From Stramenopiles sp. TOSAG23-6 (Eukaryota), in NCBI GenBank assembly GCA_900128565.1, contig LT635926.1, positions 1 through 47,610 of the forward strand: a stretch of 47,610 nucleotides of DNA, given 5' to 3'. Shown here piece after piece: positions 3,380 to 47,610 of this stretch. The notes under the pieces are model-generated. The model did no database searches. It saw nothing but the letters and a program-made list of their open reading frames with translations, and was not told where the DNA came from. Position 1 is the stretch's first letter. Every line of letters begins with the position of its first letter. The translations under genes and the position numbers were made by a program.

Positions 3380-6001
3380 TCATAAAATATTATTATCTCG
3401 AACCTGACCGTGGTAAAAACTCCGAATAAGACCAATACCCATAGAACAAAGCAATGCTTGTGTAATAGCGAAACATAAGAGCATATTATTCATAGTTGGT
3501 TCAATAGATTTCGACATTTGAGAGACCGCAACAAGAATACAACCAAATACAGATCCAAGTATTGGCAAAATCATAACAAATAAACCCGTAAATGTATTAG
3601 ACACACTAATTTTTACAATATCATGTAAAACAGACATATTAAAGCCACGCGACAATTGAACAAATACAAAGTATAACATTCCACAAAAAATATACCGTAT
3701 TGAACCTCCAAAACCAAATGTATGACTTTCAGATTCTTTGAATGGATATTGAAATAATGACATTATACCTAAAACAAGTAATACTTGAAGAAATATGACC
3801 CCTAAAAATGTTTGAGCATTGCTGCTTAAATAACCTACCATAAAATGGCATGGTAAAACAAGAACTCCTAATAAAGATATATAAAGGCATGATGCAGTTT
3901 CATACCACTTAAAAAAGTAAAATGTCACTTCAGGGATCATTATAAGAAATGTTTCCTGTTGAGCATGTATTGTGAAAAAATATTTTTTTTAATCGTTAGG
4001 TACAGAATTTCGTACGAAAAAAACTACTTCGAAATTGAAATGAAAACGTACATGTAGAATAAACACAAGTATGAGACAATATGGAATACCATACATCACA
4101 CGAATTAATGAATCATTATGCGTGATATTTTCACTTCGATATTGACGTCGAGTTTTTCCAATGAATTGATTATTATTGCTGAAATCATCTTTAGATGTAT
4201 TTGTGTTTTCAGTCACATCAAAACGAATATCTTCAACGTTTTTCATTTGTCTTATATTTGATATCTTGTCCATATTTTTGGAGAGTTCTATTGTATCACA
4301 CTTTTTAGAATCCAAATCACAGTTTGACAAAGAATTATAGTTATTCACCTTGTTCCCTTTTAACAAACCGTATGAGGCTGTTGAAACAGGTCTAATAGCA
4401 TTTGATTCGTGAGAGTTGGTATCAATATCTTCAAATTTCATTATGATAAAAATTAGCAAAATAGTCCACATACATGCCAGTAAATAACCCGGTACTGGAT
4501 GACCCGCAAATTTCATGACTGGAATATTAATTTCAGTGTGATATGTAATGATAAAACCTGCAAGCATTGGGCCAAGGAATAGTCCTACTGATCCAGCAGC
4601 AACAAATATAGCAGAAGCATATGTTCGTTGTCTCCTTGGTACAAATGATGATATATATCTTCTAGATAATGAACCAGAGCAACCAAGGCCACAAAGAATG
4701 CGACCGCAAACAAGCATCCAAACATAACCAAAATAACTTGCTAATGCATACATTAAATTCCCAAAAATGAGTAAAACTACACTAAATATAAAAGTGTTTT
4801 TGAAACTTCCATTAAAAATTCTTTCTGCTCTGTATCTATAAGGAATAGCAACTAATAATGATGCAGCTGGCATTGCGCCAAATGCCACTATACCAAAGCC
4901 AGGATTGTGTAAGGCAGATGCGTAGTTTTCTACAGTAGGAAGGATTATATAATGTATTTTGGAAAAATATTTCAAAAAAACAATCGTTAGGTACAAAATT
5001 TCGTACGAAATAAACATTCAAAATTGAAAAAAAATAAAACATACATGATTTGTTGTATACAAAAGAGTACTAACAGCACTAATTATTAGTGAATTTTTAG
5101 AGTAGACAATATTTATCTTTCCCTTTTCTTGTCGTAAACAAGGTTTCAAACACAACAAAGATGTTCCACTTTCTTGTGAATCACTACTGGTACTACTCCA
5201 GTCTACGTCTACAGAATCATCTGATGAGTTGTTATACGTATCATAATTCGAATCAGAAGCAATTACAGATAGAACATCTAAATTAGCCAAATCCATCCAG
5301 CTTCCAGCTTCTTTTGCACGGAAATGATGTTTATTTACATCTTTTAATAAGGTACCAATCATAACTGTAATTTCTGCTTCGTCACTTGAACAAGTTGTAG
5401 CAGAGATTAAATTGGCAGCTCTTAGATTTTTCATTGTCCCTGACATTTTAGACACTAAATCAGTCAAAATACTATTATACTGAAGACCTTCAATAGACTC
5501 ACGACGATAACCAGATTGATAACTTTGTAAGAATTCTGTTGTTATTGGATTTGTTGAGATTTTTTTATCATGTTTTTTCAATATTTTCCGAAGACCAGTC
5601 AAATTGAGCTCAACATATTTCAATAGTCTCACAATTTGTTGGCCGAGTTTATTGTACTGATTTAAAAGTTGCTGACCTAGAATATCTTTTTCTTCTGAAT
5701 TACTTTCACTTACTCTACTGCCTACTCTTGAAGTTTTTACTCTATCACACAAATCAAGAAATGCTATTCCTTCTTCTTGAATCTCTGCTTCCTGTTTCGA
5801 ATGAAAGACAATGATTTTGCTAAGCTCCAACTCTAGTTGAGTCACAAAAATACGCTGCTTAATTTCAGTAAACGAAGAATTGCCATCTTTCTGGCACAAA
5901 ACTATCGCTTTGATACGTTTCTTTAGACTTTTATAATCTAAATATTTATCCTTCCACTCTTGATCAAGAGTTTCGTTCAGCTTCTTTGCAAATTGAACCA
6001 T
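3380..6001 (-). CDS. SPX-domain MFS vacuolar phosphate transporter (SPX-MFS/PHT5-like); exons 6001-5045, 4951-4052, 3964-3380 (~813 aa)
   Basis: SPX motifs MVQFAK..W..KYLDYKSLKK and YVELNLTGLRKILKKHDK; MFS motifs GNLMYALA, GRILCGLG, RRYIS, GL.LGP. Removing two family introns gives LLYTTNH|YIILPT and FILH|AQQETFL. Confidence 0.9.
3965..4051 (-). other. Non-canonical family intron (GT...AT), 87 nt, phase 0
   Basis: Minus strand CAT|GTACGTTTTCAT...TTTCGTACGAAATTCTGTACCTAACG...AATATTTTTTCACAATACAT|GCT; contains an in-frame stop. A CAG 9 nt downstream is an in-frame alternative but would shorten a TM helix. Confidence 0.85.
4952..5044 (-). other. Non-canonical family intron (GT...AT), 93 nt, phase 0
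   Basis: CAT|GTATG...TTTCGTACGAAATTTTGTACCTAAC...CCAAAATACAT|TAT; in-frame TGA inside; removal restores N-H-YIILPT; first downstream AG is out of frame. Confidence 0.88.
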
Positions 6002-6420
6002 TGAAAGCTATCAAAATTAAAGAATTTAATTTGCTAAAAATAATATTATCGTTTATAGCAGTAGTCAATAATATTCCATTAATGGTTAAATTTGAGGTAT
6101 TGTGCGCGGCTAGGAATACAATACGCAATCGATAATATGATGATTATGTAAACACCACAGACCAAGCCCAAGGCAAGGAAGAATAATATATTTTGGATCA
6201 TGGGCCGGCCAAGAAATGAAAAAAATTGGCTTCGGCTTCTTCGTCTGAAAATCCAATTTCGAATTTCAACAAGTCCGAGGCGAGAGTCAGTCAAATCTTT
6301 CAAAATTTCATTATAAATAGTCCACTTTTTCTTAGTATAATATTATAGTAGGACTCTTCCACAGAACTTGAAAGCGTGTTGTTCATGAAGAGGTAGTCAA
6401 ACACACCAACCAAAACACAA

Positions 6421-9085
6421 ATGGACGCATTCCATCGTGATGGATACACTGTAATTCGTGGCGCAATTTCGCCAACCTCAGTTGAAAGCTTTACTGTGCA
6501 ACTTAATGAGGAACTATGTTTGAATTGTGGAACTGGGACAACTGATCGAACTTTAGACAGCGTTAATCTATCAGAGCCTAATACATGGCCTTCTGGTGGA
6601 TCTCGTCGCGTTGTTGAGTGTGCTCCGTTGGGAGTTGGGTCGCATTGGAATGATCTGAAACAATCTAAAGTCCTGAGTGAAGCATTAAACGCTTTATTAG
6701 GAAAAAATTGTTGGGAAATACCTCTCAACACAGCGGATAGTTGTATACGACACTGGTACTGTCCTGTATCATTCCCGGAGCATAGTAATTTAAACCATAT
6801 TGATAGTAAATATAGTAGTCAACATAAAGCAAAAAATGCTGTACATAAAGTCAAGAAAAGAAAGAATTCTACACAGTCTATTCATACTTGTACAAATTGT
6901 GGCTCAATATTTCCCAGTCGGAACAAACTTTTCAAGCATTTACCTTGTGATGATCCAGTCACTACAATTTCTAACGGAAATAGATATAAAAAAAGTAAGA
7001 ATCTGAATGATTCAAAACATATAGATACTAAAAAATATTCCATTGAAAATACACAAAAACAAAACATTGAAAATACACAAAAAAAAAATCCAAATCTTCG
7101 ACGAATAATTTTAGAGTCTTGGAAAGATGAATTAAATCGTATTTCAAAGTTTAAAACCTCGCCCACTCAACACTGGCAGCCTGTGAGTAGACGTAGATTT
7201 CGGGGTAAGGGATGGCACATTGATATTGGCCCTGGTTTTCCAGTGGATGAATTGCGTCGATTATGTACGTTAACCCTAACCCTAATCATCATTTTTTTTT
7301 ATATTTTTTTTTCTTAGTAAAGTTTGTACCTAACAAATTTCTAATTTAAAATATTTTTTTCACAGTACATCAGGTAGTCCAATTCAAGGAATGGTTGTAC
7401 TTGTTTTGTTATCTGATTGGACTATAGGTAGTGGAGGAACAGCGATGATACCTGGTAGTCATAAATGGGTTTCAAAACAGTTATACAAATCGGAGTCTTT
7501 AAGCCCGCCTGGAATTTCACATTCAGATCTAAATAATTGGTGTGTTCAGTATGTACGTAAATTGGTTGATGATGGAAAATTATGGATAGAAAATAATAAT
7601 AATAATAATATCAATAATAATAATAATAATAATAATAATGAAAGATTTATTGTCCGTCAGATATGTGGGAAAGCCGGTGATATTGTATTAATGCACCCAT
7701 GGCTTATACATTCAGGTACAACAAACATGACGAATGTACCACGTTTGATGGCAAATGGTATGATTCAAATAAAAAATAGTGTTTTTTCTCGTGAAGGATG
7801 TCGCCTTCTTCAAAAGAATTTCGAAGAAGAAGATACAATGGGAATTGAAATATGTTCAGATAAAAGAAAAAAATCTATTGTTTCACCAAGAAGTTCAAAA
7901 GTAAACAAAAAACAGAAAAAAGGTAGCAGTGAAACTAATTTTACTGTAGAAACAAAATGTAGTACAGTTATACGACCTCTTCGTCTCCCATTACCGATTA
8001 TTCTACCAAAAGTTTCAGTAATTATTCCTATATATAACGCTTGTCCTTGGTTACATGAATGTTTATCATCTATACTATCTCAATCTTATTTTCATGAATA
8101 TCAAGGATCTATCGAAGTATGCATGTATGATGATGCAAGTACTGATGATTCAGCAAAAGTCATTTTAGAATGGAAATCAAAATTTATAAATGCTGGTTTT
8201 GAGTGTGTATGTAATGGACACGGTCCATATTGGGTCGATAAAACAAATATTCCTGGTGGTGCAGGTAATGCAAAAAACATGGCAGTATTAAATAGTACTG
8301 GTACTTTTCTTTGTTTTATTGATGCCGATGATTATATGAGACCTGATAGAATTGTAAAACAATTAGCATTAGTACAAGGTCGAGATGATGTACTGATCGG
8401 CTCAGGTTTTACAAGGAATCCTAATGATGCAACTTTACATTATTCAAATTGGTGCAATTCTTTAACAAAAAAACAATTATTTTTAGAACAATATCGCGAA
8501 ATTACAATTATTCAACCCACGTGGTTTTTATCACGTCGCCAATTTGATCGTGTCGGTGGTTATGAGACTCAGTCACCAGATTCAAATTCACCTTTTCCCT
8601 CGGATCTTGTATTTTTTCACTCTCACTTGGATAAGAATGGTTGTTTGGATAGAGTAAATGAACCATTAGTTACATATCGATATTTAGCAAATAGTGTTTC
8701 ATGGCGCATTCCACGAAAAGTATTACTTCAAAAACGTTTACGTGCTTTAGAAAGGCGTGTTTTATCGAAAAAGAGATGGGGGAAATTTACAATTTGGGGA
8801 GCTGGAAGAGATGGGAAAAACTTTATTAACGAACTTTTACCAAAATACAGATCTCAAGTTAGTGCTTTTTGTGATGTTGATTATAAAAAAATCAAAAGAG
8901 GTTATCATAACCATAAACCTCGCCCCGCTGGATCTCCACCTATTTCAATACCTGTAATACATTTCACCGAAGCAAAGGCTCCTATCATTATATGTGTTGC
9001 AAAAGGACGTACTGGTGGTCAATTAGAGAGTAATATTAAGTCTCTTGGACTTATTGAAGGTTACGATTATTGGCACTTTTCATAA
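6421..9085 (+). CDS. Fusion of PhyH-like Fe(II)/2OG dioxygenase, C2H2-like zinc finger and GT2 glycosyltransferase (B3GNTL1/QTGAL-like); exons 6421-7264, 7371-9085
   Basis: F..DGY.VI, WHID, GGT..IPGSHK, GKAGDIVLMHPWLIHSG..N...PR (PhyH, split across the intron); CTNCGSIFPSRNKLFKHL; VSVIIP.YNA..WL.ECL.S, DDASTD, CFIDADD, PTWF, FTIWGAGRDG, AFCDVD, TGG.LE.N..SL.L.EG.DY.HFS (B3GNTL1-like). Confidence 0.85.
7265..7370 (+). other. Family intron (GT...AT, or GT...AG at 7373), 106 nt, phase 1; carries TAACCC repeats
   Basis: TTAT|GTACGTTAACCCTAACCCTAA...TGTACCTAAC...ATATTTTTTTCACAGTACAT|CAGG. The first CAG (7365) is out of frame; CAT (7370) and the next CAG (7373) are in frame. Confidence 0.8.
7591..7639 (+). 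repeat. (AAT)n microsatellite encoding poly-Asn
   Basis: Run of aat triplets inside the ORF. Confidence 0.9.
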
Positions 9086-16201: not shown

Positions 16202-17211
16202 TTAATTTCGTTGAAATGGCATCCTTTCAGTAGCTGTATCAAAGTTTGAATAATTTCTATTGTCACTTCCAATCGCCATTGCAATAGATATTGCAGCTTC
16301 TGCTGTAGCTGAGACTGATGCAAGTGTAGGAGTTGTTTCTCTACTATTTTCACTGGTGAGATAAATATCTATTGAATTTGGAATTTCTTCATGTAGTAAA
16401 CTATCAATATGATTCGCGTTCTTTGGGCTTCCCCCAGGTGCTGCAGCAAATGCATTCTGGTCATTACTTCCTCCTGTACTGTGGTTTACTAACTCCTTAT
16501 TCACATCATTGACGTAAGGGATGTATTGTGAAAAAATATTTTAAATTCAAAATTCGTTAGGTACAAAATTTCCTATGAAAAAAATTTTTTTTAAATTCAT
16601 GATAAAACGTACGCAATCGAACTAATGCGAGCTTGCATACTATTTATTTGTTGGTGCATGAGAGAGATGCGCTCTTCAAGAAAAGCAAAATTAGATTTTT
16701 CAAAATTTTCTCTATCATCATCAGATGTCTCATTGTATATTATAGTATCACTCACAGAGCCATAATCACTATTATAGTTGGAAACAATGGAGTCAGAATC
16801 ACTATAACTATCAAATTTTGTACCATTATTATCGACTTTCTTATTCGTTGACTCAAAATTCTCTCTCACTACATTTTGCTCAATATATTCATCTTCACTG
16901 TTCTGTTGTGTATCGATATGCTCCATGTAAGATATAAAATCAACATAGGAACAAATACCATTTCCCAAAAGGTCAAATATCTTCGGCACAACTTCTAGTT
17001 CATGAGCTGTTATACGAACAATTCTACACAAAACTTTTCGAAACTCGATGTCTGATACGATTCCAGTTTCTTTGCTGTCAAATTTTTTGAATTCTTCATG
17101 CATATTTTTTTGGTGTGCCAGGCCGACATACGAATAAAATCTAAGTTTTTTCCTTAACTTTGCAAGAACTGTCGCGACTTTGGTGAAATGATTCAATTCT
17201 TCAGTTGACAT
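16202..17211 (-). CDS. EF-hand protein; exons 17211-16613, 16520-16202
   Basis: EF-hand loops FDSKETGIVSDIEF and FDLLGNGICSYVDF; removing the family intron joins the two ORFs in phase 2. Confidence 0.7.
16521..16612 (-). other. Non-canonical family intron (GT...AT), 92 nt, phase 2; upstream exon ends GC
   Basis: ATTGC|GTACGTTTT...GAAATTTTGTACCTAACG...ATATTTTTTCACAATACAT|CCCT; no in-frame AG within ~30 nt downstream. Confidence 0.8.
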
Positions 17212-26208: not shown

Positions 26209-28075
26209 TTAATTTTGTAGCAAATGTCGTTTTTTGTTAATAATTTCCCTAACAATATTCATTACCTGAGTAAAATCTGTTGTTGGATTTAATTTAACAT
26301 AGTCTTTCGAAGCAACAGTTATAATTGAACACCATTTTGGTATATATGCAACGAGCATCACCAACAACTTATCTACTTTTTCAATAGTCACGTCACTTTT
26401 ACCCTTACAACGAAAACTTTCAGAAATTCTCAAAGCTAAATTTTTTCTCAAAATTGTTGTTTTTCGTCTTGTGCTGCAGTATTGATGTATTGTACAACAA
26501 ACATCGGGCAATAGCTCAAGTAACATCATCTGAGTATGATGCTTGGCTCGTTTTTGGAGCACATTTGCATTTTCTTCTTTTGATCGAATTGTAGCAAGTA
26601 AATCAGAAATATCTGATGAAGACGTTGAAGATTGTGAATTCTCCAGTGGATTATGTATTTTGGAAAAATATTTCAAATTGTTTTTTGTTAGGTACAAAAT
26701 TTCGTAAAAAAAATCGAATTTGAAAAAATATAAACCATACATGGATCGGACCAATTAAATCATCAGTAGATGACTTTTCATTTTGTCCACTCTTTGATTT
26801 TAAACTTGCTATGGACTTCATAGCTATTTTGTCTGCTTCAATATCATTGCAAGGTGGGTATGGAATATCCATTAAATTATCGATTTTTTTTCTGTTTGTA
26901 TGAGGATCAATAGTAGAATTAAGAGAATCTCTATGAGTTGAATTACTTTCTAAAGCATAAGCATCTTGCTTTATTTTTTTCTCTTTCAACACATTTTGAA
27001 GATGATCACAGAGACGCTGATACATTATATCAATGCGAAGACTTAATTTTTCTCCCGATGCCGAACTTTTTTTCCGAGATGTACAGTTTTGTAATTGTGT
27101 TATTTTTGTAACGTCAGGATTAATTAATGAAATGTTTTCTGATTTTTTATTAACACCACTATTTGAAATATCCATACCATTCCGCTTAGTAATGTCATAA
27201 AGCTTTTTACGTTTCNGTTTTTTACTTTTTACATTTGAAGTAAGAGTCGTAGAACAATTAAATTTAAATTTTTCTCGAGTGAATACAATTGCAGGGGGTT
27301 CTCCGACATTTCTCGAACTTTCTAAAAAAGTAGCATTTTGTTCTTTTGAATTTCCGTTCATTACATTCTTGACATGCGCTGGCCAATCTATATTATAATC
27401 TGGATCACCACCTAGAAGATACTGACGTGTAGGGGTAATTACATAAGCTTCCTCATATAAATTAGAAATTCGTCGAAGATGTTCAATTGGAAAGGAACGT
27501 TTTGTCGCATGTTCAACAGCAGATTTTATTCGTGAAAATACAGAAATTTGACGCCGTGTTTGCATTATTGTCAATACTGTATCAAGAGCACCAAATGTAT
27601 GGAGTAATATGCTGTAATTTGGAGGCAGAGTTATTGTTTTAGATTTATTTGATTTTCCAGAATATTTTTTGTTTAAATATTCTGCAGTAGCTGTATTAGG
27701 CATATTCTCATTGGTCACTTGCGTAATCTGTCTTCTGTTTTCATCTCTACGACGTGACGTTTTACGTAAAGAAGACTTCTCTAAAGATGTATAATTTCCC
27801 CTTTGTCTTACTGATGGGGCTTGCATTTCGGATCGCTTCCGTTTTTGGGGATGTGTATCAAAGAGATTATCGTCAGCGTTGCGCCGCTTTTGTGACAGTA
27901 GACAACGTTGGCGTTGCATTGGATTTTGAAACAAAAATCGTTTTCGTGCACGTCGGTTGGATAATGCATTCAATACTTTTGAACAATTTTCATCATTCCT
28001 TTTGTTTTGGGACAACTTTATACCTTTGGTATTTTCCATTAGGAATGATGAGTTGTTTTCACTATTATTGCTCAT
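26209..28075 (-). CDS. CDT1: DNA replication licensing factor Cdt1; exons 28075-26741, 26652-26209
   Basis: LP.NY..L...F.ALDTV..I...R.....F..IK.AVE..TKR.F...HL..I..L (CDT1 domain); C-terminal winged helix LPDV...I....RK...L..L...IP.W. Confidence 0.8.
26653..26740 (-). other. Non-canonical family intron (GT...AT), 88 nt, phase 0
   Basis: ATCCAT|GTATGG...ACGAAATTTTGTACCTAAC...ATATTTTTCCAAAATACAT|AATCCA; length is not a multiple of 3 and removal joins the two Cdt1 ORFs. Confidence 0.85.
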
Positions 28076-34597: not shown

Positions 34598-35728
34598 ATG
34601 CCAAATTTAAAACTGCAGCCAGATTTACGCCGAGTGTCCTTTGATAGTCCAAAGTACACCTCAGTACAAGGTAGTGAAATTGAATCTCTGGAAGTACCCG
34701 GAGAAAACAGTTTAGTACTTGCTCCTGAAAGAAATGAGGCATTGAAAGATTCATCAGATTATAAGAAAATAAGTTTATCCATCTTGTTTCTATTATTTGG
34801 TTGTTTAGAGCTAGTATTGAAGCGATGGTTATTTCTCCATAAATTCCATTTTCCGGTTTTTACAGCTTTTGTAACTCAATTATTTTGCTCTTTTGCTTTA
34901 TTATCTGGTCTTTTACTTCAACTTTGGAAATTTTCTCCTGAACGTAAAGAGCCATTTTTTACTGATTCTTCTTTATGCTGTAAGTTACTGGGATTAATGT
35001 TGCTACATGGTGGAAACGTCACATTAGATTTGGTTGGGTTGATGGAAATGCCAGCTGCTGTTGTTAAAGTAATCCGAACACCTAAACCTCTTTATACCGA
35101 CTTACTCACGTGGGCATTTTATGGAGTTCGTAGTACTAGGAATCAATGGTGTGCAATGATTTTAACATTATTTGGTGCCATATGCACAATTGCTAAAAAC
35201 CCACATGTTACAATCCTTGGTTTAATATCAGTGTCTGTTGCAGCTGTGTTTTCAGCTGGTCATTTTGTATTAGCAGCGTCAGTTATGAATGTTTTATTTT
35301 TTTTTCAAATTCGAATTTATTTTTCATACGAAATTTTGTACCTAAGGATTTTTTTTTTTTTTTTTGAAATATTTTTCTAAAATACATGAATGATAATGGT
35401 GTAGACCCTTTGTCTCTCATGCTATTACTCAGTGCCCCATTAACTATATTTTTAATACCGATTGTTTCATATGTAGATGGATTTACAAATGTAATTGAAT
35501 TTTGTGATCAACCCGGGGAAATGTATGTATGTTTTTTTTTTTCAATTGTTTTGTCTACATTTTTTTTTTCAATTGTTTTGTCTACATTTTTTTTCTAACA
35601 AAATTAAAAATGCTTTTTTGAAATATTTTCATACAATGTATAATGTTTTATCAGCTTTACTTCCAGCGTCAATTATATCATTTTTTCATAGTATTTTAGG
35701 TTGGTATCTAATTAAGTGGACGACACCG
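34598..35728 (+). CDS. TPT/SLC35 nucleotide-sugar transporter, C-terminally incomplete; exons 34598-35286, 35388-35526, 35642-35728
   Basis: FHFPVF.AF..Q, L...L..M......VIR..KP, DPLSL....AP, LIKWTTP; many TM helices; the usual last two helices are absent. Confidence 0.7.
35287..35387 (+). other. Family intron, 101 nt; GA...AT in the family register (GT...AT if slid 4 nt)
   Basis: GTTAT|GAATGTTTT...TACGAAATTTTGTACCTAAG...ATATTTTTCTAAAATACAT|GAATG; 7-nt direct repeat ATGAATG; removal restores frame. Confidence 0.8.
35527..35641 (+). other. Family intron (GT...AT), 115 nt, phase 0
   Basis: ATGTAT|GTATGTTTT...TTCTAAC...AAATATTTTCATACAATGTAT|AAT; internal ~27-nt duplication; removal gives GEMY|NVLSALL. 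Confidence 0.8.
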
Positions 35729-35823
35729 GTACGTTTTCATTTCAATTTCAATTTCAATTTTTTTTTTCGTACGAAATTTTGTACCTAACGATTTTAATTT
35801 TTGAAATATTTTTCATAATGAAT
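35729..35823 (+). other. Family intron at the TPT / PA-domain junction; 3' end uncertain (35819 or 35823)
   Basis: CCG|GTACGTTTTCAT...TTTCGTACGAAATTTTGTACCTAACG...AAATATTTTTCATAATGAAT. Confidence 0.7.
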
Positions 35824-37186
35824 GTAGCCCTTTGCTTAATACTTCTGTAGGGTTAGGGTTAGAGGATTCTGTACCTAACACAAATAAAGATGACACAGCA
35901 TATGTATGTTTAGAAGGAGATGGTATCAATAATGACAATCCACCTTGTTTATCATGTACGTTTTCATTGTGAATATCAAATGTATTTTTGTTTTCATAGT
36001 AAATTTTGTACCTAACGATTTAAAAAAAATACTTTTTCACAATACATCAAGTATCAAAGGTAAAGCCGTTATTATGCTACGTGGCTCTTGTGACTTTTCT
36101 ACTAAAGTAAAACATGCTGAACAAGCTGGTGCTGCAGCAGTTATTGTTGGTAATTATAGAAAAGATGTAAATGAAGGCAAAATTAAATCTTATTTTAGTC
36201 GGTATACTACAACATACAAAACAACAACTGATATTATTAGTCATGAAAAAACTGATAATGATTTTCAAAGTATTTATGGTGATGAGACTGTACGTATGAG
36301 TAGTGATGATATTATTAGTATGAGCCGTGATTTTAGTGATACAACTGAAATCCGAATGTACGTGTATATCATTTTAATTTTCATTTTAAGTTTGTTTTCG
36401 TACGTAATTTTGTACCTAACAATTTTTGAATTTTTGAAATATTTTTTCACAAAACATTCCTTCAATATTTTTGTCTCTCAATGATTTTCGTACTTTTCTT
36501 TATCAATTAAATGAACAATATAGAGCGAAAAGTTCAGATATACATTCAAATGTATCAAACGATACACGCGAAATTCATGTAAAATTTCATGGAAAATTAC
36601 ATCAAACAAAGCACAAAGGACTTCATTTTAGAGATTTAGGTTTACATGTACGTTTTCATCATGAATTTCAAAAAAAAATCATTCTCTCTCTCTCTCTCGC
36701 TGTCTCTCTCTCTCTCTCTCTCGCTGTCTCTTGCTTCCTCCACTGCCCATGTCTAAATTCTCGCGCTCTCTCTCTTCTCTCTTACTTCGTCTCTCTCTCT
36801 CTCTCTCTNTCTTGCTATCACTCTCTCTATTCCTCTTCTCTGTCCGTGTCTCAAGTTTTTTTTTCGTACCAAAATTTGTACCTAACGAATTTTTTGTACG
36901 CAAAAAAAAATATTTTTTCACAATGCATCCTTTTGTACAAGTTAGTAATGCTAAAGTCAAAATTTCAAATGTCAAGAAAATTGATATTAATAATAGTAGT
37001 ATTAGAAATATGCCAACTCCAATGAATCAAGCTTTTTCTGAAAGTAAACTTGAATGTGTTTTGTCTTCAATTTCACATTTGAAAAAAAAAGATAAAATAT
37101 CTCAAGATGAAGAAATTATTGATGAAAATTCAAGTCGTCAAAAAGTTCTGATTAGTAACGTTCAAATATGTAGAAATAAGAATTAA
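35820..37186 (+). CDS. PA (protease-associated) domain protein, 5'-incomplete or fused to the upstream transporter; multi-exon
   Basis: Spliced product CSPLLN...SIKGKAVIMLRGSCDFSTKVKHAEQAGAAAVIVGN...IRIPSIFLS has the classic PA-domain motif order. Confidence 0.75.
35847..35903 (+). other. Candidate 57-nt minimal family intron (GT...AT), in frame and stop-free, with GGGTTA repeats
   Basis: TCT|GTAGGGTTAGGGTTAGAGGATTCTGTACCTAAC...GACACAGCATAT|GTA. Confidence 0.55.
35956..36047 (+). other. Non-canonical family intron (GT...AT), 92 nt, phase 1
   Basis: TCAT|GTACGTTTTCAT...AAATTTTGTACCTAACG...CACAATACAT|CAAG; the AG 4 nt downstream is out of frame. Confidence 0.85.
36358..36457 (+). other. Non-canonical family intron (GT...AT), 100 nt, phase 2
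   Basis: CGAAT|GTACG...TTCGTACGTAATTTTGTACCTAAC...ATATTTTTTCACAAAACAT|TCCT; restores the PA motif IPSIFLS; no AG from the branch box to >60 nt downstream. Confidence 0.9.
36648..36928 (+). other. Family intron (GT...AT), 281 nt, expanded by a CT-rich microsatellite
   Basis: TTACAT|GTACGTTTTCATCATGAA...(CT)n...TTCGTACCAAAATTTGTACCTAACG...CACAATGCAT|CCT; removal is in frame. Confidence 0.8.
36683..36853. repeat. Imperfect (CT)n microsatellite
   Basis: Runs of ctctct within the intron. Confidence 0.9.
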
Positions 37187-37290
37187 ATAAGTTAAAATTT
37201 AATATAAAAAATAGTATTTATAGTAAAATGAATCATTATTTAGGTATATAGTATTTACATGATATATATATATATACAATATATATACCA

Positions 37291-38682: not shown

Positions 38683-39915
38683 TCAGGGAAATGTCAGAAC
38701 AATTTCTAAATTATTCTTCAATTCATCTGAAGCATGCTGCAAAGCAAAACCACGATTTTTCACTGCTGCCATAACAATTTTCACTGCTGCCATAACAACT
38801 TCAAAGGTATTCTTCATTTCATCTGAAGCAAACCTCCAAACCATGCTACACTTTTTCGTTTTCAATGCTGTCATAACAATTTCTAAATTATTCTTCAATT
38901 CATCTGAAGCATGGTACCAAGCACCGCCATCATTTTTCACTGCTGCCATAACAACTTTAAAGTTATTCTTCATTTCATCTGAAGCATACTCCAAATTATT
39001 ACCATTCGTTTTCAATGCTGCCATAACAATTTCTAAATTATTCTTCAATTCATCTGAAGCATACCTCAAATTATTGAACTCACATTTGTAAAGATTGCCC
39101 CTAGTTTTCACTGCTGCCATAACAACTTTAAAGTTATTCTTCATTTCATCTGAAGCATCCCCCAAACTAAACACGTCACTTCTGAAACCTCTCAATAAAA
39201 ATGCCTCATTATCTTTCAGAGAATTTGGAGCAAATTGTAGAAAAGATGTATTTGCGCTCACTGATAAATCAAAGATAAACTGTCTATCATTTCTCATTTC
39301 TTCAGAAAGAAAGTCCGAAATTACGCCAGAAAACCAGTCTGCCGTGTCTGCTGCATAATCGCTGTCGATAGATACTACAGTTCGTCCTACCAAGAGTATG
39401 AAGTTTTTATCTTTGAAAAGTGTATCTGATTGACTTAACTTGTCAAACCAACATTGCCTTACCTTGTCAAACCAAGGTAAGTCCCAGTCAGAGTAAGGTT
39501 CAAAATCTTCAGGTCCATCTAAGTTCAAAGTACCCTCCCACATTATATCGTCCGTAAAATCTTTCCAGTTTTCTGAATTGACTTCACTAAGTCTTGAGTA
39601 GCAGTATTTGCTGTAATCAATTCCAACTTTCATTAACTCTTGAAGTATCCATTCTTTTCGTTTAGTGACCCTGCTCACTTTTAGTTTCACCCATAAAGAT
39701 TCAAGTAAACTTAATTCAACGTTAAAGCACTTACCAACAACTGCAACAAAATCTTCATCATCTTCAGTAATATATTCAACAATTGAAAGAACAATAGCCA
39801 TAGGAATTATATTTTGCAGATTACTACAGGGCTTATTCGAAGATGTACTAGTACTATCANCTTTTNGCTTTATTCTGCGAGTACTAGTNTTTTGAGATGA
39901 ANTCTTTTTTGCCAT
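38683..39915 (-). CDS. DUF4116-repeat protein
   Basis: Tandem ~25-aa units ASDE(L/M)KNN(L/F)(E/K)(I/V)VMAAVK.NG..L.Y, visible as ~75-bp DNA repeats at 38700-39160. Confidence 0.8.
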   Translation of the reverse strand: MAKKXSSQXTSTRRIKXKXDSTSTSSNKPCSNLQNIIPMAIVLSIVEYITEDDEDFVAVVGKCFNVELSLLESLWVKLKVSRVTKRKEWILQELMKVGIDYSKYCYSRLSEVNSENWKDFTDDIMWEGTLNLDGPEDFEPYSDWDLPWFDKVRQCWFDKLSQSDTLFKDKNFILLVGRTVVSIDSDYAADTADWFSGVISDFLSEEMRNDRQFIFDLSVSANTSFLQFAPNSLKDNEAFLLRGFRSDVFSLGDASDEMKNNFKVVMAAVKTRGNLYKCEFNNLRYASDELKNNLEIVMAALKTNGNNLEYASDEMKNNFKVVMAAVKNDGGAWYHASDELKNNLEIVMTALKTKKCSMVWRFASDEMKNTFEVVMAAVKIVMAAVKNRGFALQHASDELKNNLEIVLTFP

Positions 39916-40569
39916 GCTGAACTAAGATCTATGATTTGAAGTTATTGTAATGAATATCTGATTATAATGGTTCTACTTCGCGGTGTCGTTTGTTTGGGGA
40001 CGGTGCAGCAGAAAGAAAAAGTATAATAATCTTCTCTGACTGGCCAGGCCTAGCTAGGGTACCAACAACGCGCGAGACACAAATGAAATTCTATATCAAA
40101 ACACAAGACTCAGATGGAATCTAACAATGTTTCGAACTAAAACAGACAAACTAAGTGTCTCGTTTTCAATAATCTAAAGAAACAACGAACAGCAAACAAC
40201 CAAAACCCAACCAATCAGCGATTGGCTCGCACAAAAATGTGAAATTTTGCTGTCATAATATCGTTTTCACACTGACGTCATCGAATTATCATAATAAATT
40301 CATAAATCGCTTTTCGGATTTTTTTTCAAAATCTCGAAAAAAATGTCTAAAAAAAATCTTTAGTTTTCGAATTTTCTTTGATTTTCTTTTGGACATCTCC
40401 GACATCTCTTGGATGTTAATGATTTTTGCAAGTGCTGTGGAAAAAATAAAAAGAATCTATTATTTACATAAACATATTTTAATTTTCAAAACAATTTATT
40501 AATCAAACATTCAAAAAAATGCACCAAAATTATAAAATTATATTTATTTACATCTCTCTTTATTCAAAC

Positions 40570-42614: not shown

Positions 42615-45600
42615 TCAGACTGTTTTAACATACATTACATATTTCGGTTGCATTATGCTGGCCACCCTACCAATTCGAAAATCTTTTTCACTGTCAGGAA
42701 TAGCGCAGTAGGGAATATCAGTCAATTTCGGATCGGAAATATCCCTGTTCAACTCAAAAAGCTCTCGTTGGAGACGTTCATGATAGTACTTTTTTGTGTT
42801 TTCCTCGACACAGTCCAATTTCAAAAACTTAGATACTATCAATGCTTTGATTGATGGAGAAGTATCTTCAGATGAATATGTCATTGCTGAATGAATACTA
42901 GTTGTAGAATAAATACCAAAGCCATGTATTGTGAGAAAATATTTCAAAAAAAATCGTTACGTACAAAATTTCGTATGAAAAAAAACTTAAAAAGTTGAAA
43001 TAGAAAACGTACATGCACACTTCGCTTCAATTTGGAAAGGTCAAAACCATGTTTCATAATAGAAAAAATATTTCGTGGTTTGGTACCATGAAACGTCCAA
43101 TCAAATTGAATCTCTGGAGTTTTTGGATTACTTTCAAATTGAGATTTTAATTCCAGATATTGATGCTCAAGACGTGGATTATTGCAATATACAACTTTAT
43201 CTAATTTATATTTCGCTAATGTACCAGATTGTTCGTTTGATCTCTTGAATATTTCTTCTGCAATTGTATAATTAGGGTCACCTTGATAGATAACTTTGCA
43301 AAATGAAAACGTTGGATGTATCTGAAATTCTACAAATATTCCATTATGGTCAGATGCACCACTTTCCAACATATCTAATACCCGATGTGAAACTAATGTT
43401 GCAGGGAATTCAGATGCATGGCATTGTTTAGCAGCGACCATGGTATCAGATTGTGAAGGTTGAAGTTTTTGAGATATCAATTCGAAGGACATAGATTCTT
43501 CAGAATTAGGTTTAAATTGAGATTCTTCTTCAAATTCAGGTTCAGGTTCAACTTGAGATTCTTCTCTAGATTCAGGTTCAGGTTCAACTTGAGATTCTTC
43601 TTTATATTCAGTTTTTCCTTCAAGTTCAATTCGAAAAAGAAAACGCTTCTTATAAAATACTCCATCTGGAGTACCACCATATGCAGAAGTTATTTCTGCA
43701 ATTTCTACAGGTGTGTACTGTGTTGGAAAAAATATGTTTTATATTTGAAATTCGTTAGCTTAGGCACAAAATTTTATACCAAAAAAAAAACAAGATTAAA
43801 ATTAATTATGAAAACGTACATTCTCATCAATGAGATATTTTTCTGGTAGAGAATTCCACTGTACTATATCACTCTCTGTCCAGTTTAATTTCTGTAAATA
43901 AGATACATTGTTTCCTCTGGAGTCACTATTCAAATCACCCAAGATAAAATCTGAATTTTGATAAACAGCAACTTTCAATAATTCTAATTTAGCTTTTTTT
44001 ACATCAATACCATTACTAAATATAATTGACTCGTCATTCGATCCACCACAGAGATGGACATTTGTTATGGTATATCTATCAAGTAAATTATCGGTTTTTC
44101 CATCAGTAATTTTTGGTTTGATTGTAATTGTGTTAATTGCTCTATGAGTTGGACAAGTTTCCTGATTTTTTACAACTTCTAATTGATGCCATCGTTCATT
44201 ATCTATCACCCATAAAGACTCATCTCGAATATATATTGACATACTCTCCGTATGCATATCAATATAAGATTTTCGGGAATATCCAAAAAGATGTAAATCA
44301 TCAAAAGACTCCTGAAGTACTACAACATCTGGAGTACTTTCAGCTAAATGTTTATTCAACATATCTTCAACATTTTCTCCACGATTATTATAAATATTGA
44401 AACTTGCAATTTTTAATGGTATAGATGTACTTCTTCTTCTTGACTTATCTAGATGCATAACAATCTCTTTTTGTTTTTCTACTCTCAAAGTAGAATAAGT
44501 CGTTATTTTAGAACCCAATTCAGGTTCATATTCAATTGTAACCCTAGGAACAGTTTGAGCTTTGTCCATTAAGTCAGTATCTTGTAAAAGCATTTGAATA
44601 GCATCTGTGCTATCTTTGCTTTCTTTTCCAGGATTCGTACGCAGTATATCTATAAATGGTACTCCTAAATGAAGAATTGCTGCTCGGAGAAAAGTTTCGT
44701 CATTCCATAATTCAGGATTATTTTTCATAATTGGATTCAAAGTCTCAACAGATCGAATGACAATGTTATGGCTTAGAAAACATTTCAAAACGAAGTCTCG
44801 ATTATTTAAGAATTTTTTTGCAGCTTTTCCAAATGTTTCTTTGGCATCTTCATGTAAATAAATTTCAGACCAAATTTTAGGAAATTCATTAATATTTTGT
44901 AAAACAAATGCAACATTTGAATATAAATCAAAAGGTACAAATTCAAACATTGACCAATCTTGTTGAATAGCATATAATGCGATTTCTTTCTCATTCCTCA
45001 AATCAGGAGATACGTAATAAAAATTATCCGAATTCTGTTGAATAGCACATAATGCAATTTCTTTATCATTCTTCATATTTTCTGGGATGTATTGTAATGC
45101 TTCGCCATTTTTACAAACAACAGAAAAAATAAAATCACGATCTTCAAGTAAAGCTGAAGAAAACACATAGTTCAATACATGACGTATCTTAAAAAATATG
45201 TCAAATTCGAAAATCGTTAGGTACATTTTTTTTAACGTAAAAAAAGATATTGAAATACATTATGAAAACGCACAGGAAATTTTTCACTTGCATTTAAAAT
45301 AAAGTTACGATTAGCAAGTAACTCTTTTGTCGCATGTTCCATGATAAAACCGAAGAGAAATTGAGCATTGGGAATTTTTAATACGTCAAGTATAAATGCA
45401 GAATCGCCACGCAAAGTCACCGAGGCATTTTGAAATAGGTTTATTTCATGACGCAAAATCTTCAGCATAAAATTGGCATCGCTACGTAACTCTGAAGAAC
45501 CAAATTTTATAAAGACTACCAACTTTAGAGAATCTGTAGAGTCAAGTATTTTTCTTTCTTTTTTGAGTTGAAAAATATCCCTCAAAAGAATATCCTTTAT

Positions 45601-46056
45601 CCTCTGAGATGCAAATTGAAACTGATATTTATCTTGAGAAATGAATGACAAAGCAACCTCCATGTCATCCTTCCAAATATAAGATAGGCAACTAAAATGA
45701 AAATCACAGTAATCTTTTTGGTTTAATAACAAGTTTTTCACGCTACTCAAAAAGTCACGATTTTCACGTAAAATAGGAAACTCGGATAGATAGATATCAA
45801 AAATACCAACAGTTTTGCAAATATCAACAGCTGCAGCAGCAATGACACAATCAAGATTGGCACGTATCCATTCATTTTGAAATTGCTGTAGAAATGGTAA
45901 GTTCAAAGTTCGTGTTTCGATTCCTCTCAGGAATTCTTCCGGAGACATTTCGACTACAGATTTTTCTTCACTAGTCTTTGGTGTAACACGCAACGAACTC
46001 TCAGCATCGATTATAACAAAAGCTAATGTAAGAAGTATAACATTTTTTATCGCCAT
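42615..46056 (-). CDS. Signal peptide + DUF4116-like repeats + EEP (DNase I-like) domain + PARP-like ADP-ribosyltransferase domain; exons 46056-45274, ~45181-43820, 43717-43013, 42923-42615 (~1050 aa)
   Basis: Leader MAIKNVILLTLAFVIIDA; LQY.P..MKNDKEIAL.AI repeats; EEP motifs ASFNI, DVVVLQE, NVHL, LGDLN, PD.VFY, SDH; ART motifs NPRL, FHGT, GF, H|GFGIYS, PKY; three family introns join four segments in frame. Confidence 0.8.
42924..43012 (-). other. Non-canonical family intron (GT...AT), 89 nt, phase 0
   Basis: GTGCAT|GTACGTTTT...TACGAAATTTTGTACGTAACG...CTCACAATACAT|GGC; restores the PARP-type RSVH|GFGIYS; next AG is out of frame and would delete GxGIY. Confidence 0.88.
43718..43819 (-). other. 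Family intron with canonical GT...AG ends, 102 nt, phase 0
   Basis: GAGAAT|GTACGTTTTCAT...AAATTTTGTGCCTAAGCTAACG...ATATTTTTTCCAACACAG|TAC; in frame through to the MSFEL ORF. Confidence 0.8.
45182..45273 (-). other. Family intron, phase 0; 3' end ambiguous (AAG at 45188, CGT at 45182 or CAT at 45179)
   Basis: CCT|GTGCGTTTTCAT...TGTACCTAACG...ATATTTTTTAAGATACGTCAT; all three acceptors are in frame. Confidence 0.75.
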
Positions 46057-46408
46057 TGAAAGTTTTCTAGAGTATCAAGGAAAAAATAAAGTTCGTAGAA
46101 GGATTGTTTTCGAAAAGAATTGTGTGTTTTCTATAGGCTGTAGTAGGTATAGATATATAACACAAAAATCATTCCACGCTGACTCGTTTTGCACTCGTTT
46201 TTAAAATCTCAAAAATTTAGTTTTTCGGTCAAAACCGAAAACGAAAATGCCAAGGAGAAGAAAAATCTTCCACTACGAAAAAAAGCTAACTTTAGTTTTA
46301 AAAAAAGGTCTGCATTTCTAAAGAGATCTGGAAATAAAGATATATTTTGTTATAGTAGGAGAGTTGTCCTTGGTGTAGCAATTTTATTGATAGGATCTGA
46401 ATTTAACA

Positions 46409-47503
46409 ATGGTGGATATAAAAGGATTTTTCATGAATTTTTTGTCAAAGTCGCAACCTGTGGATCAATTCCAGGAGCACTGGAAAAGCGTTCAAAATAG
46501 TCATAATATTTTAGTAAGACAATCTAAAACGTACAATGATGTCAAAGCTTTAAAAGCGTCTAAAATTCCGGATAAGTTGCGTCACATGTTAAAATTATTA
46601 CTTGAAGAACAAAATGAGTTCCTTGAGTTTGATGGTGGAGGTGTAAGTGACGTTCCTGCTGCTGGTCCTTGCCTTGAGTTCCTTCTTAATAGTCGGTTAG
46701 TTGAGTCATTATGCATGATGGGCTTAGCAGATACTCCTCATGGTATGATGTCGATTGTTCTCCAAACAGTCTATGTCCTCGTAAAACACGTGAAAAGTTC
46801 CTTATTACCTCATATGTTTGTACATGCCCCAGTATGTCAACTGATTTTTGTTACCTCTGAATTAGTGAAAGATTTACGTTCAAAGGCGGCAACTGAACAT
46901 ACAGTGAACCAAAAAAAAGTTCAGTTGGCACTCGTTGCACTTATAAATGCTATATGGTGGAGAATTAAAGAGGATACATCACAGCTTAGTTTTTTTATTC
47001 ATGAAAATAATACGAGAAAATATCCAGATATTGTCATTTTTACTGCACTTTTACCTTATATTCATGTAGGTTCCTACGTACTATATTTTATTATTATTTT
47101 TTTTCCTTTTTTTATAGATAATTTCGTACCTAACATTTTTTTTAGTAAAAATATGTTTCACAGTATTTGTACGTGGACGTATTGGTGAGTATGCTCGAAA
47201 TGCTATTTTAACTGTAATGCAGTTAAATAATCTCTCCAAAATATCGAAAATGATAGTTCATGTATGTTTTTTAACCCTAACCCTAACCATATATGATGAT
47301 CATGAATTTCAATTTTTTTTTTTTTCATAGTACATTAAATTTTCATACCTAACAAAAAAAAATAAAATTTGACATACTTTCACAAAATACATGCAACTAG
47401 TTTTTGTCATCGAATTGTCGAAGGCTTAGTAAGATCGTATAAAGTGTTACCGATGACTTTTGAAGCTGCAAAAACTGCATCAAATTCGACAACGATGTTA
47501 CAT
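46409..47503 (+). CDS. FHIP/FAM160 (RAI16-like) protein, runs off the window; exons 46409-47065, 47169-47261, 47393-47503
   Basis: F..HW..V, L..EE, GPCLEFLL...L...LC..G..D.P.GM, LLPH..VH.PV..L; spliced LLPYIH|VRGRIGEYARNAIL and IVH|ATSFC...GL...Y..LP. Confidence 0.85.
47066..47168 (+). other. Family intron, 103 nt, apparent GT...TT ends
   Basis: ATTCAT|GTAGG...TTCGTACCTAAC...ATATGTTTCACAGTATTT|GTACGT; with this donor the internal CAG is out of frame and leads to a stop. Confidence 0.7.
47262..47392 (+). other. Non-canonical family intron (GT...AT), 131 nt, phase 0; carries TAACCC repeats
   Basis: GTTCAT|GTATGTTTTTTAACCCTAACCCTAACC...CATACCTAAC...CACAAAATACAT|GCA; next AG is out of frame. 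Confidence 0.85.
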
Positions 47504-47610
47504 GTACATTTTCATCATGAATTTCGAATTTATATTTTTTTTTTTTGAAAATTTTGTACCTAACAAAAAAAAAACATTTTTTTTTTTTTAGTTTTTTTTC
47601 GTTACATTTT
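47504..47610 (+). other. Family intron at the window edge (possible end TTACAT at 47607)
   Basis: TTACAT|GTACATTTTCATCATGAA...AAATTTTGTACCTAAC; downstream exon not visible. Confidence 0.65.

What the first reader, a model, noticed from the sequence alone, without database searches (positions are those of the whole stretch)
3965..47610. Window-wide family of non-canonical GT-AT introns as the dominant intron class
Seen: 18 related insertions start at 3965, 4952, 7265, 16521, 26653, 35287, 35527, 35729, 35847, 35956, 36358, 36648, 42924, 43718, 45182, 47066, 47262 and 47504. All are inside coding sequence, all in sense orientation, none intergenic. They share GTAYGTTTT at the 5' end, usually a TACCTAAC box ~25-45 nt from the 3' end, and ATATTTTTTCACAATACAT at the 3' end. 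Excision at GT...AT restores frame in phases 0, 1 and 2. It rebuilds conserved motifs (SPX-MFS N-H-YIILPT, PA-domain IPSIFLS, PARP HGFGIY, FHIP IVHATSFC) where no in-frame AG exists nearby. Established: spliceosomal introns almost always end AG, or AC for a U12 subset. Inference: this lineage routinely splices at YAT 3' sites, including in essential genes such as Cdt1, which implies altered 3' splice-site recognition. The exon usually ends AT too, so AT...AC gives the same mRNA. GT...AT is preferred because GT is kept in 17 of 18 copies while the preceding AT is kept in 14, and the putative AC varies (GT, GC, GA, AT).
Basis: partly seen in the sequence, partly recalled or inferred. Interest (0 to 1): 0.95.

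Follow-up and report, generated by a model that had tools for sequence, protein, structure and literature searches.

The report
Repeated mobile introns ending in AT
A marine protist genome fragment carries 17 copies of one ~90-base repeated intron, always in the sense direction inside genes, and most can only restore the protein if they are cut out at a GT...CAT boundary instead of the near-universal GT...AG; RNA proof is still missing.

Summary
The repeat family is real. A profile finds 17 copies in the window, all in the sense direction inside open reading frames.

Copies share GTAYGT at the 5' end, a TACCTAAC branch-like box 28-43 nt from the 3' end, and a conserved tail ending CAT. Cutting GT...CAT gives stop-free ORFs in all seven host genes, including one 628-aa ORF spliced through six copies.

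In the SPX-MFS gene, exact excision of both copies aligns without gaps to 45 homologues. It also outscores every canonical alternative tested.

Two copies have acquired an in-frame AG (43718, 47066). Depth in a DNA run implies thousands of copies genome-wide.

The best reading is an introner-like element family removed by the major spliceosome at a non-AG (CAT) 3' site, in a stramenopile that a database label points to as MAST-3.

No spliced RNA junction was seen. The only informative RNA-library contig retains both flanking intron parts, so splicing and its register remain inferred.

Related cases are known (Fritillaria, Amoebophrya). This is a new variant, not a new category.

The parts
3965..4051 (-). 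Family copy, 87 nt, phase 0, CAT|GTACGT...ACAT|, in the SPX-MFS gene
   Evidence: The junction VFILH|AQQETF aligns without gaps to 45 homologues. Exact excision scores 423.6 bits against 415.5 for the in-frame AG at +9.
4952..5044 (-). Family copy, 93 nt, phase 0, CAT|GTATGT...ACAT|, in the SPX-MFS gene
   Evidence: The junction LLYTTNH|YIILPT aligns without gaps to 45 homologues. With this donor there is no in-frame AG within 60 nt. GT-AG alternatives score 373-376 bits against 423.6.
7265..7370 (+). Family copy, 106 nt, phase 1, with (CCCTAA)2 after GTACGTT. It has an out-of-frame AG at -5 and an in-frame CAG at +3.
16521..16612 (-). Family copy, 92 nt, phase 2, GC|GTACGT...ACAT|. There is no AT before the GT.
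   Evidence: The host gene has no homologue other than itself.
26653..26740 (-). Family copy, 88 nt, phase 0, in the Cdt1 gene, between the CDT1 and CDT1_C domains
35287..35387 (+). Family copy, 101 nt, phase 2, starting GAATGT. GAAT is repeated after the 3' end, so GT(+4)...AAT(+4) gives the same mRNA.
35527..35641 (+). Family copy, 115 nt, phase 0, ending GTAT with a 7-nt repeat of the exon end. An in-frame CAT| also lies at -9.
35729..35816 (+). Family copy, 88 nt, phase 0, CCG|GTACGT...TTTTTCAT|.
   Evidence: only this end keeps the 628-aa ORF open. With the aligned end at 35823 the model has 14 internal stops.
35847..35889 (+). It is not an intron. It is coding sequence (..SVGLGLEDSVPNTNK..) that happens to contain GGGTTAGGGTTAG and a TGTACCTAAC box.
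   Evidence: (E = 0.58, box only)
35956..36047 (+). Family copy, 92 nt, phase 1, inside the PA domain
36358..36457 (+). Family copy, 100 nt, phase 2. No GT-AG alternative was found within the range scanned.
36648..36928 (+). Family copy, 281 nt, phase 0, with a CT-rich microsatellite insert, ending GCAT|
   Evidence: (3' part 36850-36928)
42924..43012 (-). Family copy, 89 nt, phase 0, box TACGTAAC, in the PARP-domain gene
43718..43819 (-). Family copy, 102 nt, phase 0, with a tail ending CACAG|. This makes it a canonical GT-AG copy.
45182..45273 (-). Diverged copy starting GTGCGT. Three in-frame ends are possible: AAG| (45188), ACGT| (45182) and CAT| (45179).
47066..47168 (+). Diverged copy in the FHIP (RAI16-like) gene. 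It fits either GT(47070)...CACAG|(47163) or GT(47066)...TA|(47168).
47262..47392 (+). Family copy, 131 nt, phase 0, with (CCCTAA)2. An earlier, out-of-frame CAT lies 23 nt after the branch A.
47504..47610 (+). Family copy with its 3' end at or beyond the window end

Best explanation
These are copies of one short (about 87-131 nt), AT-rich, introner-like mobile element that has colonised the coding exons of a marine stramenopile. A database label points to the MAST-3 lineage.

Each copy carries a yeast-like 5' splice site (GTAYGT) and a branch-site box (TACCTAAC). The box is followed by a T-rich stretch and a conserved tail, ...ATATTTTTTCACAATACAT.

The pre-mRNA is restored by removing exactly the stretch from the G of GT to the T of the terminal CAT. 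The most likely agent is the major (U2-type) spliceosome. The 3' splice site would then be CAU rather than CAG.

The exon in front usually ends (C)AT as well. This looks like a 2-3 nt target duplication or a target preference, and it makes the register formally ambiguous in most copies.

What is shown:
- the family and its strict sense orientation;
- conserved ends;
- the need for exact excision, from ORFs and from homology at two junctions.

What is inferred:
- that excision happens in RNA, by the spliceosome, in the GT...AT register;
- how the element moves.
For: - **Family size and orientation.** 17 copies, all sense (P = 7.6e-6).
- **Conservation.** The first 7 nt (0.86), the box region (0.89) and the last 19 nt (0.89) are more conserved than the parts between them (0.69 and 0.65). 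Overall pairwise identity is only 0.59-0.87, median 0.73. This points to constraint on three signals, including the 3' tail.
- **Frames.** Cutting GT...AT keeps the flanking long ORFs in frame in 12 of 13 copies, and in 13 of 13 after copy 35729 is corrected.
- **Complete ORFs.** All seven host gene models become stop-free ORFs that end at a stop codon. One is a 628-aa ORF through six copies, and one is an 813-aa SPX-MFS protein.
- **Homology at two junctions.** Both SPX-MFS junctions align without gaps to 45 homologues. An HMM built from those homologues scores exact excision at 423.6 bits. Alternatives score 415.4 and 420.2 (6 nt retained), 415.5 and 412.7 (AG alternatives at copy 3965) and 373.2 and 375.6 (GT-AG alternatives at copy 4952).
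- **AG is not a general way out.** In 12 typical copies the first AG after the box lies at -5 to +66 nt from the family end, and it is in frame in only 3. With the family donor, 6 of 12 have no in-frame AG within 60 nt.
- **Not structure-driven.** There is no conserved RNA structure (-0.21 kcal/mol, no covariation), which argues against structure-driven non-spliceosomal excision.
- **Copy number.** At copy positions the summed depth in DNA run X1 is 1e5-1e6, against 12-60 in most unique bins. 5,449 contig pieces were laid on 5.4 kb.
Against: - No spliced junction was observed in RNA.
- In the one RNA-library run that could be laid (X6), record 31 holds exon 36458-36647 together with 63 nt of the upstream copy and 21 nt of the downstream copy. 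That means unspliced RNA or DNA carry-over. 702 X6 contig pieces match the copies.
- The homology test covers only 2 of 17 junctions. One alternative, 6 nt retained at copy 3965, is only 3.4 bits worse.
- TAT, and in copy 47262 a CAT, occur upstream of the proposed site, so a simple 'first YAT' rule cannot explain site choice.
- A 3' terminal U has no established pairing partner in the known second-step active site (my own knowledge, not from a call).
- Two copies use AG, so the machinery is not AG-blind.
Confidence: 0.65

Rival explanations
1. The family is the same and is removed by the spliceosome, but the register is AT...AC: the intron starts at the AT before the GT and ends at the AC before the final AT. 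That would make these U2-type (or U12-type) AT-AC introns, a known class.
For: AT precedes the GT in 14 of 17 copies. An AT-AC pair shifted by -2/-2 that gives the same mRNA exists in 10 of the 15 copies scanned. A(+1)/C(-1) is an established compatible pair (my own knowledge, not from a call).
Against: - The shifted register gives AT-GT (35527), AT-GC (36648), GC-AC (16521) and CG-TC (35729). GT...AT holds in all four.
- GTAYGT matches the U1/U6-type 5' site only in the GT register.
- The U12 hallmarks are absent: no RTATCCTT at any copy, and the box lies 28-43 nt from the end rather than about 10-20.
Confidence: 0.12
2. The copies are removed by something other than the spliceosome. One possibility is an RNA endonuclease-plus-ligase pathway, as proposed for euglenid non-conventional introns or bulge-helix-bulge introns. 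Another is excision from DNA between short direct repeats, as for ciliate eliminated sequences.
For: Short direct repeats of 0-7 nt, usually AT or CAT, overlap the boundaries. The ends are not GT-AG. An RNA-library contig still holds intron parts.
Against: - The strict sense orientation (17 of 17) is not expected for DNA excision.
- The copies are present in contigs of three DNA runs.
- No conserved helix brings the ends together.
- The conserved signals are exactly those of a 5' splice site and a branch site.
Confidence: 0.06
3. The copies are not removed precisely. Either nearby canonical GT-AG sites are used, which changes the proteins as in the database gene model, or the host genes are decaying.
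For: The database CDS P0002 models copy 4952 with a 150-nt GT-AG intron and reads into copy 3965. Copies 43718 and 47066 do have in-frame AG ends. Copy 7265 has an in-frame CAG at +3.
Against: - The GT-AG alternatives at copy 4952 delete conserved residues and lose about 48-50 bits.
- 6 of 12 typical copies have no in-frame AG within 60 nt of the family donor.
- Long ORFs of up to 570 codons stay open on both sides of the copies in all seven genes. This is not expected of pseudogenes.
Confidence: 0.05

Closest known systems
Introner elements (Micromonas, Aureococcus, dinoflagellates, fungi; surveys PMC9860276 and PMC12130899, passages read)
   Same: Many near-identical short introns in unrelated genes. 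The similarity runs to both boundaries. There is a short duplication at the insertion site, the element supplies splice signals, and copy numbers are high in a marine protist.
   Different: - The described families are reported with familiar splice sites, and the 2025 survey dropped families with unfamiliar sites unless RNA data confirmed them (PMC12130899, passage).
- Here the 3' end is CAT.
- Here no intergenic or antisense copy and no clear terminal inverted repeat were seen, though the sample is only 47.6 kb.
Non-canonical introners of Amoebophrya (PMC7789003, abstract and passages read)
   Same: Repeated non-GT-AG introns in a marine protist, with 3-5 nt direct repeats overlapping the exon/intron boundaries, so the borders are ambiguous.
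   Different: - Amoebophrya copies have 8-20 nt inverted repeats that form a hairpin, and no consistent terminal dinucleotides.
- Here there is no conserved hairpin.
- Here the signals are uniform: a standard GTAYGT 5' site, a CTAAC-type box and a fixed CAT end.
Non-canonical introns of the tunicate Fritillaria borealis (summarised in PMC11282704, passage read; PMC13326754, abstract seen in a listing)
   Same: Transposon-derived introns that escape the GT/AG rule and are processed by the major spliceosome. Introns ending AT are common there (AG-AT).
   Different: Fritillaria's prevalent types are AG-AC and AG-AT, so the 5' end is non-GT. Here the 5' end is a textbook GTAYGT and only the last base departs from the rule.
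Rare GT-AT introns of animals (PMC1557818, passages read)
   Same: The same terminal dinucleotides. That paper lists 7 U12-type GT-AT introns in human plus mouse and one conserved U2-type case (DGCR2), and cites experiments showing that GT-AT is competent for U12-type splicing.
   Different: Those are isolated introns, mostly U12-type with U12 motifs. Here GT-AT would be the majority class of a family with thousands of copies and U2-type motifs.

Membership tests
Introner / introner-like element | Many introns of unrelated genes share sequence similarity that extends to both intron ends | tested here: met
   17 profile matches in 7 genes. Depth and piece counts imply thousands more.
Introner / introner-like element | The copies are removed from transcripts as introns | tested here: inconclusive
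   ORF logic and homology require exact removal. No spliced RNA was seen, and one RNA-library contig is unspliced.
Introner / introner-like element | Transposon hallmarks: target-site duplication, terminal inverted repeats, copies also outside genes or in both orientations | tested here: inconclusive
   - AT or CAT is repeated at both ends in 11 of 13 copies, but the repeat length varies from 0 to 7 nt.
- There is only a 4-6 nt GTAY/RTAC end symmetry (read from the alignment).
- There are 0 intergenic and 0 antisense copies in 47.6 kb (P = 0.11 for intergenic).
U2-type (major) spliceosomal intron | 5' GTRNGT-type site and a CTRAY-type branch site upstream of a pyrimidine-rich tract | tested here: met
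   GTAYGT in 13 of 17 copies and GT in 16 of 17. TACCTAAC lies 28-43 nt from the end and is followed by a T-run.
U2-type (major) spliceosomal intron | 3' terminal YAG | tested here: not met
   13 of 16 complete copies end AT. Only 43718, and probably 47066, end AG.
U12-type (minor) intron | 5' RTATCCTT and a TCCTTAAC branch site about 10-20 nt from the 3' end (motifs recalled from my own knowledge) | tested here: not met
   None of the 7 RTATCCTT matches in the window lies at a copy. The box-to-end distance is 28-43 nt.
Structure-dependent non-conventional introns (euglenid type, Amoebophrya introners) | A stable helix or 8-20 nt inverted repeat that brings the intron ends together | tested here: not met
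   The RNAalifold consensus is -0.21 kcal/mol, with 5 pairs and no compensatory change.
Ciliate-type internal eliminated sequences | Excision from DNA, independent of transcription strand | tested here: not met
   17 of 17 copies are sense. The copies are present in contigs of DNA runs X1, X3 and X4. Somatic versus germline DNA cannot be separated with these data.

The most novel reading that the evidence does not exclude
In this stramenopile lineage the major spliceosome has lost its dependence on the 3' terminal G. It reads an extended element-borne signal (T-run + CACAATACAT) at a set distance from the branch site and ligates after CAU, while still accepting CAG when a copy mutates to it. 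The element may then spread by reverse splicing into transcripts rather than by DNA transposition, which would explain why all copies are sense and genic and why the flanking repeat has no fixed length. If so, this is a natural system with thousands of substrates for studying how the second catalytic step picks its site.
Probability: 0.3. Interest if true: 0.85.

Novelty: new variant of a known kind. Interest (0 to 1): 0.72.

Why it matters
If the GT...CAT junctions are confirmed in RNA, three things follow.

1. **A clean natural exception.** Thousands of introns would have textbook 5' and branch signals and differ from the rule by a single base at the 3' end. That is a cleaner exception to the AG rule than the heterogeneous non-canonical introns of Fritillaria or Amoebophrya. 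It would be a direct handle on 3' splice-site choice.

2. **Gene models would be wrong.** Gene finders that insist on GT-AG will truncate or mangle every host gene. The one database model I could check loses conserved residues and its whole last exon. Gene counts, 'pseudogene' calls and functional inferences for such uncultured marine flagellates could therefore be biased. This is my inference and was not tested genome-wide.

3. **Surveys would miss such families.** Introner surveys start from annotated introns and discard unfamiliar splice sites that lack RNA support (PMC12130899, passage).

Tried and rejected
**Whole genome and earlier findings**
- No whole genome is held for this window.

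**RNA evidence**
- One RNA run (X6, a seawater metatranscriptome kept as contigs) was laid on 34433-39859.
- No exon-exon joint of the expected sizes (88-281 nt) appears among the 15 joints listed; 259 more were not shown.
- X6 record 25 stops at 35278, 8 nt before copy 35287, while DNA contigs run on to 35314/35315. That is one study only and too weak to use.

**Homologue searches that gave nothing usable**
- EF-hand gene of copy 16521: only itself.
- PA exon, longer proteins: none.
- PDB: MFS exon none; the SPX exon hit only SPX domains far from the junction; PARP exons none relevant.
- Pfam on short exons gave no profile coordinates near junctions. The one exception is that FHIP exon 1 ends at RAI16-like position 135 of 358.

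**Other collections**
- The search for related loci in metagenome contigs: none.
- The 19-nt core pattern gave 3 hits in metagenome contigs, 1 in genome contigs and 0 in viral contigs.
- All 4 hits match only the core and lack the family ends, so they are chance matches.
- No empty sites, orthologous loci or extra copies were obtained.

**Models considered and rejected**
- Retention of 6 nt (TA...TA cut): 3.4-8.2 bits worse.
- First AG after the box.
- U12-type.
- Hairpin-guided excision.
- An intron at 35847.
- The DUF4116 repeat period could not decide among the three possible ends of copy 45182.

**Other scans**
- A scan for other GTRNGT...YTAAC candidates listed 26 sites, none needed by any ORF. 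I did not test them one by one.
- Rfam and tRNA scans: nothing.

**Literature and technical**
- Searches found no paper that mentions introners together with MAST-3 or MAST-4, or describes this family.
- Supplementary files were not consulted and may hold intron statistics.
- timed out and was repeated.


Full report
**What the window is.**
- It is 47,610 nt, 34.6% G+C, with 10 single Ns.
- It is a gene-dense eukaryotic fragment: 88% lies in ORF-defined gene spans.
- Pfam finds ordinary eukaryotic genes. These include Macro/CRAL-TRIO, SPX-MFS, PhyH + GT2, HMG-CoA synthase, ALG9, a 2,482-aa ankyrin/TRAF protein, TRAPP, Cdt1, a tRNA U5 methyltransferase, an M16 peptidase, an EamA/TPT-like + PA protein, CFAP97, DUF4116, a PARP-domain protein and FHIP/RAI16-like.
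- The only near-identical database protein is P0002 (99% identity). Its source label is eukprot:GSMAST32.ASY1.ANO1.807.1, which points to a MAST-3-type marine stramenopile.
- Near-identical DNA is held by two runs of one organism and, in part, by seawater metagenomes.
- No whole genome is held.

**The observation.**
- The sequences at all 18 reported starts are as described.
- A profile from 12 clear copies finds 17 matches at E <= 5.4e-4. The next hit (E = 0.58) is only the branch box at 35866-35883.
- All 17 matches are in the sense direction of their host ORF (P = 7.6e-6). The absence of intergenic copies is not significant (P = 0.11).
- The consensus is GTAcGTtTt ... TTTTGTACCTAAC ... gAAATATTTTTtCAcAATACAT.
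- Copies are only 59-87% identical to each other, median 73%.
- Column conservation is 0.86 for the first 7 nt, 0.89 for the box region and 0.89 for the last 19 nt. The stretches between score 0.69 and 0.65. Three signals therefore look constrained, including the 3' tail.
- The family is 24% G+C and makes up 3.7% of the window.

**Copy number.** When four runs were laid on 34433-39859, summed depth at copy positions in DNA run X1 reached 1e5-1e6, against 12-60 in most unique bins. 5,449 pieces were laid from X1's 119,919 contigs. The family therefore has thousands of copies in that assembly. At about one copy per 2.8 kb, the window agrees with this.

**Must the copies be removed, and where?**
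- All but two of the 13 copies tabulated put a stop into the upstream reading frame within or right at the end of the copy. The other two change the frame.
- Cutting from the G of GT to the T of the terminal AT keeps the flanking long ORFs in frame in 12 of 13.
- The exception, copy 35729, is resolved by an in-frame CAT| at 35816, 7 nt before the aligned end.
- With that end, exons 34523-35286, 35388-35526, 35642-35728, 35817-35955, 36048-36357, 36458-36647 and 36929-37186 form one 628-aa ORF with no internal stop, through six copies. With the aligned end the model has 14 stops.
- All seven host gene models become stop-free ORFs ending at a stop codon.

**Homology test.**
- An exhaustive HMMER search with the middle SPX-MFS exon gave 688 relatives at E <= 0.001, of which 150 were listed.
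- I aligned the exact-excision model with the first 45 of the 149 listed homologues that are 600-900 aa long.
- Both junctions are gapless: LLYTTNH|YIILPT against FLYMTNY|YIVAPT, and VFILH|AQQETF against YFVLK|LVLESL with the conserved E in register.
- An HMM of the 45 homologues alone scored the alternatives as follows:

| Model | Bits |
|---|---|
| Exact excision of both copies | 423.6 |
| 6 nt kept at copy 3965 | 420.2 |
| AG at +9, copy 3965 | 415.5 |
| 6 nt kept at copy 4952 | 415.4 |
| GT-AG (-15, +9), copy 3965 | 412.7 |
| GT-AG (-26, +22), copy 4952 | 375.6 |
| Database model's GT-AG intron, copy 4952 | 373.2 |

- The database CDS removes 150 nt around copy 4952, which deletes SAVSTLLYTTNH and YIILPTVE. 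It then reads into copy 3965 as far as a stop and loses the last exon.

**Why not AG?**
- In the 12 typical copies scanned, the first AG after the box lies at -5 to +66 nt from the family end. It is in frame in only 3.
- With the family donor, six copies have no in-frame AG within 60 nt: 35287, 35527, 36358, 47262, 4952 and 42924.
- Copy 7265 has an out-of-frame AG 5 nt before its CAT end, which would have to be skipped.
- Two copies have changed tails that end CACAG and are in frame as GT-AG: 43718, and 47066 with a donor 4 nt further in. AG is evidently still usable.
- Copy 45182 is undecided (AAG|, ACGT| or CAT|).

**Register.**
- The exon in front ends AT in 14 of 17 copies. The -3 to -1 positions are C 8, A 11 and T 11 of 13. 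An AT...AC cut therefore gives the same mRNA in 10 copies.
- In copies 16521, 35527, 35729 and 36648 the shifted register is GC-AC, AT-GT, CG-TC and AT-GC, while GT...AT holds.
- GTAYGT matches a U1/U6-type 5' site only in the GT register.
- U12 features are absent.
- I therefore prefer GT...(C)AT, but only RNA can settle it. The one gene that could decide by protein sequence has no homologue.
- Copy 35287 starts GAATGT, but GAAT recurs after its 3' end, so GT...AAT shifted by 4 gives the same mRNA.

**Mechanism.**
- The conserved parts are what a U2-type spliceosome reads. There is no conserved RNA structure, and the strand bias points to an RNA-level process. The best reading is therefore spliceosomal removal with CAU in place of CAG.
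- Site choice cannot be 'first YAT', because TAT occurs in the tail and copy 47262 has an earlier CAT 23 nt after the branch A. The conserved tail, or the distance from the box (28-43 nt), probably helps. This is inference.
- How the element moves is open. The flanking repeat (AT or CAT, 0-7 nt), the 4-6 nt end symmetry and the sense-only distribution fit more than one route. One is a DNA element with a 2-3 nt duplication followed by selection; the other is reverse splicing.

**RNA evidence.**
- None supports splicing.
- The RNA-library run X6 yields a contig with exon 36458-36647 plus parts of both flanking copies, and 702 pieces matching copies. This may be pre-mRNA or DNA carry-over.
- This is the main weakness of the case.

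**What is known.**
- Introners are well described (PMC9860276 and PMC12130899, passages).
- Non-canonical repeated introns with boundary repeats are known in Amoebophrya (PMC7789003, abstract and passages).
- Fritillaria has prevalent AG-AC and AG-AT introns (PMC11282704, passage).
- GT-AT occurs as rare single introns in mammals (PMC1557818, passages).
- Five full-text searches found no paper that links introners with MAST-3 or MAST-4, or describes this family.
- Three papers on MAST genomes barely mention introns: the word occurs 2, 0 and 0 times in PMC5778133, PMC12614181 and PMC8163842 (passages only, supplements not seen).

**Verdict.**
- It is a new variant of a known kind: an introner-like family with a uniform non-AG 3' end.

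Noticed in passing
window 7274-7285 and 47275-47286: The only two (CCCTAA)2 telomere-like repeats in the window both lie inside family copies. They sit at the same place, right after GTAYGTT, and in the same orientation. This could be a subfamily or a trace of how copies are made.
   Followed up: partly
window 35850-35862: GGGTTAGGGTTAG followed by a TGTACCTAAC box looks like a decayed copy, yet it is read as protein (VGLGLEDSVPN) in the 628-aa ORF. It may be an exonised remnant of a copy.
   Followed up: partly
window 36680-36870: Copy 36648-36928 carries a CT-rich microsatellite insert of about 190 nt, with an N at 36809. This makes it three times the usual length.
   Followed up: no
window 3380-6001 (-), protein P0002: The database gene model for the SPX-MFS gene forces a 150-nt GT-AG intron, reads into the second copy as far as a stop, and drops the last 194 codons. 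Other models of this organism may be affected in the same way.
   Followed up: yes
window 34523-37186 (+): One ORF joins a multi-pass EamA/TPT-like membrane part to a C-terminal PA domain. This is an unusual domain pairing. No homologue was found with the PA exon.
   Followed up: partly
window 9235-12525 (-): A single 1,096-aa ORF combines the HMG-CoA synthase N and C domains with a ketoacyl-synthase-like domain.
   Followed up: no
window 17616-25064 (+): An intron-free 2,482-aa ORF with many ankyrin repeats and nine TRAF-type zinc fingers.
   Followed up: no
window 36395-36668, run X6 record 31: A contig from an RNA library covers an exon together with parts of both neighbouring copies. Its first 40 letters belong to another copy.
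   Followed up: partly
window 42615-46074 (-): The PARP-domain gene has DUF4116 repeats in its N-terminal half. A separate DUF4116 gene lies at 38683-39921.
   Followed up: no
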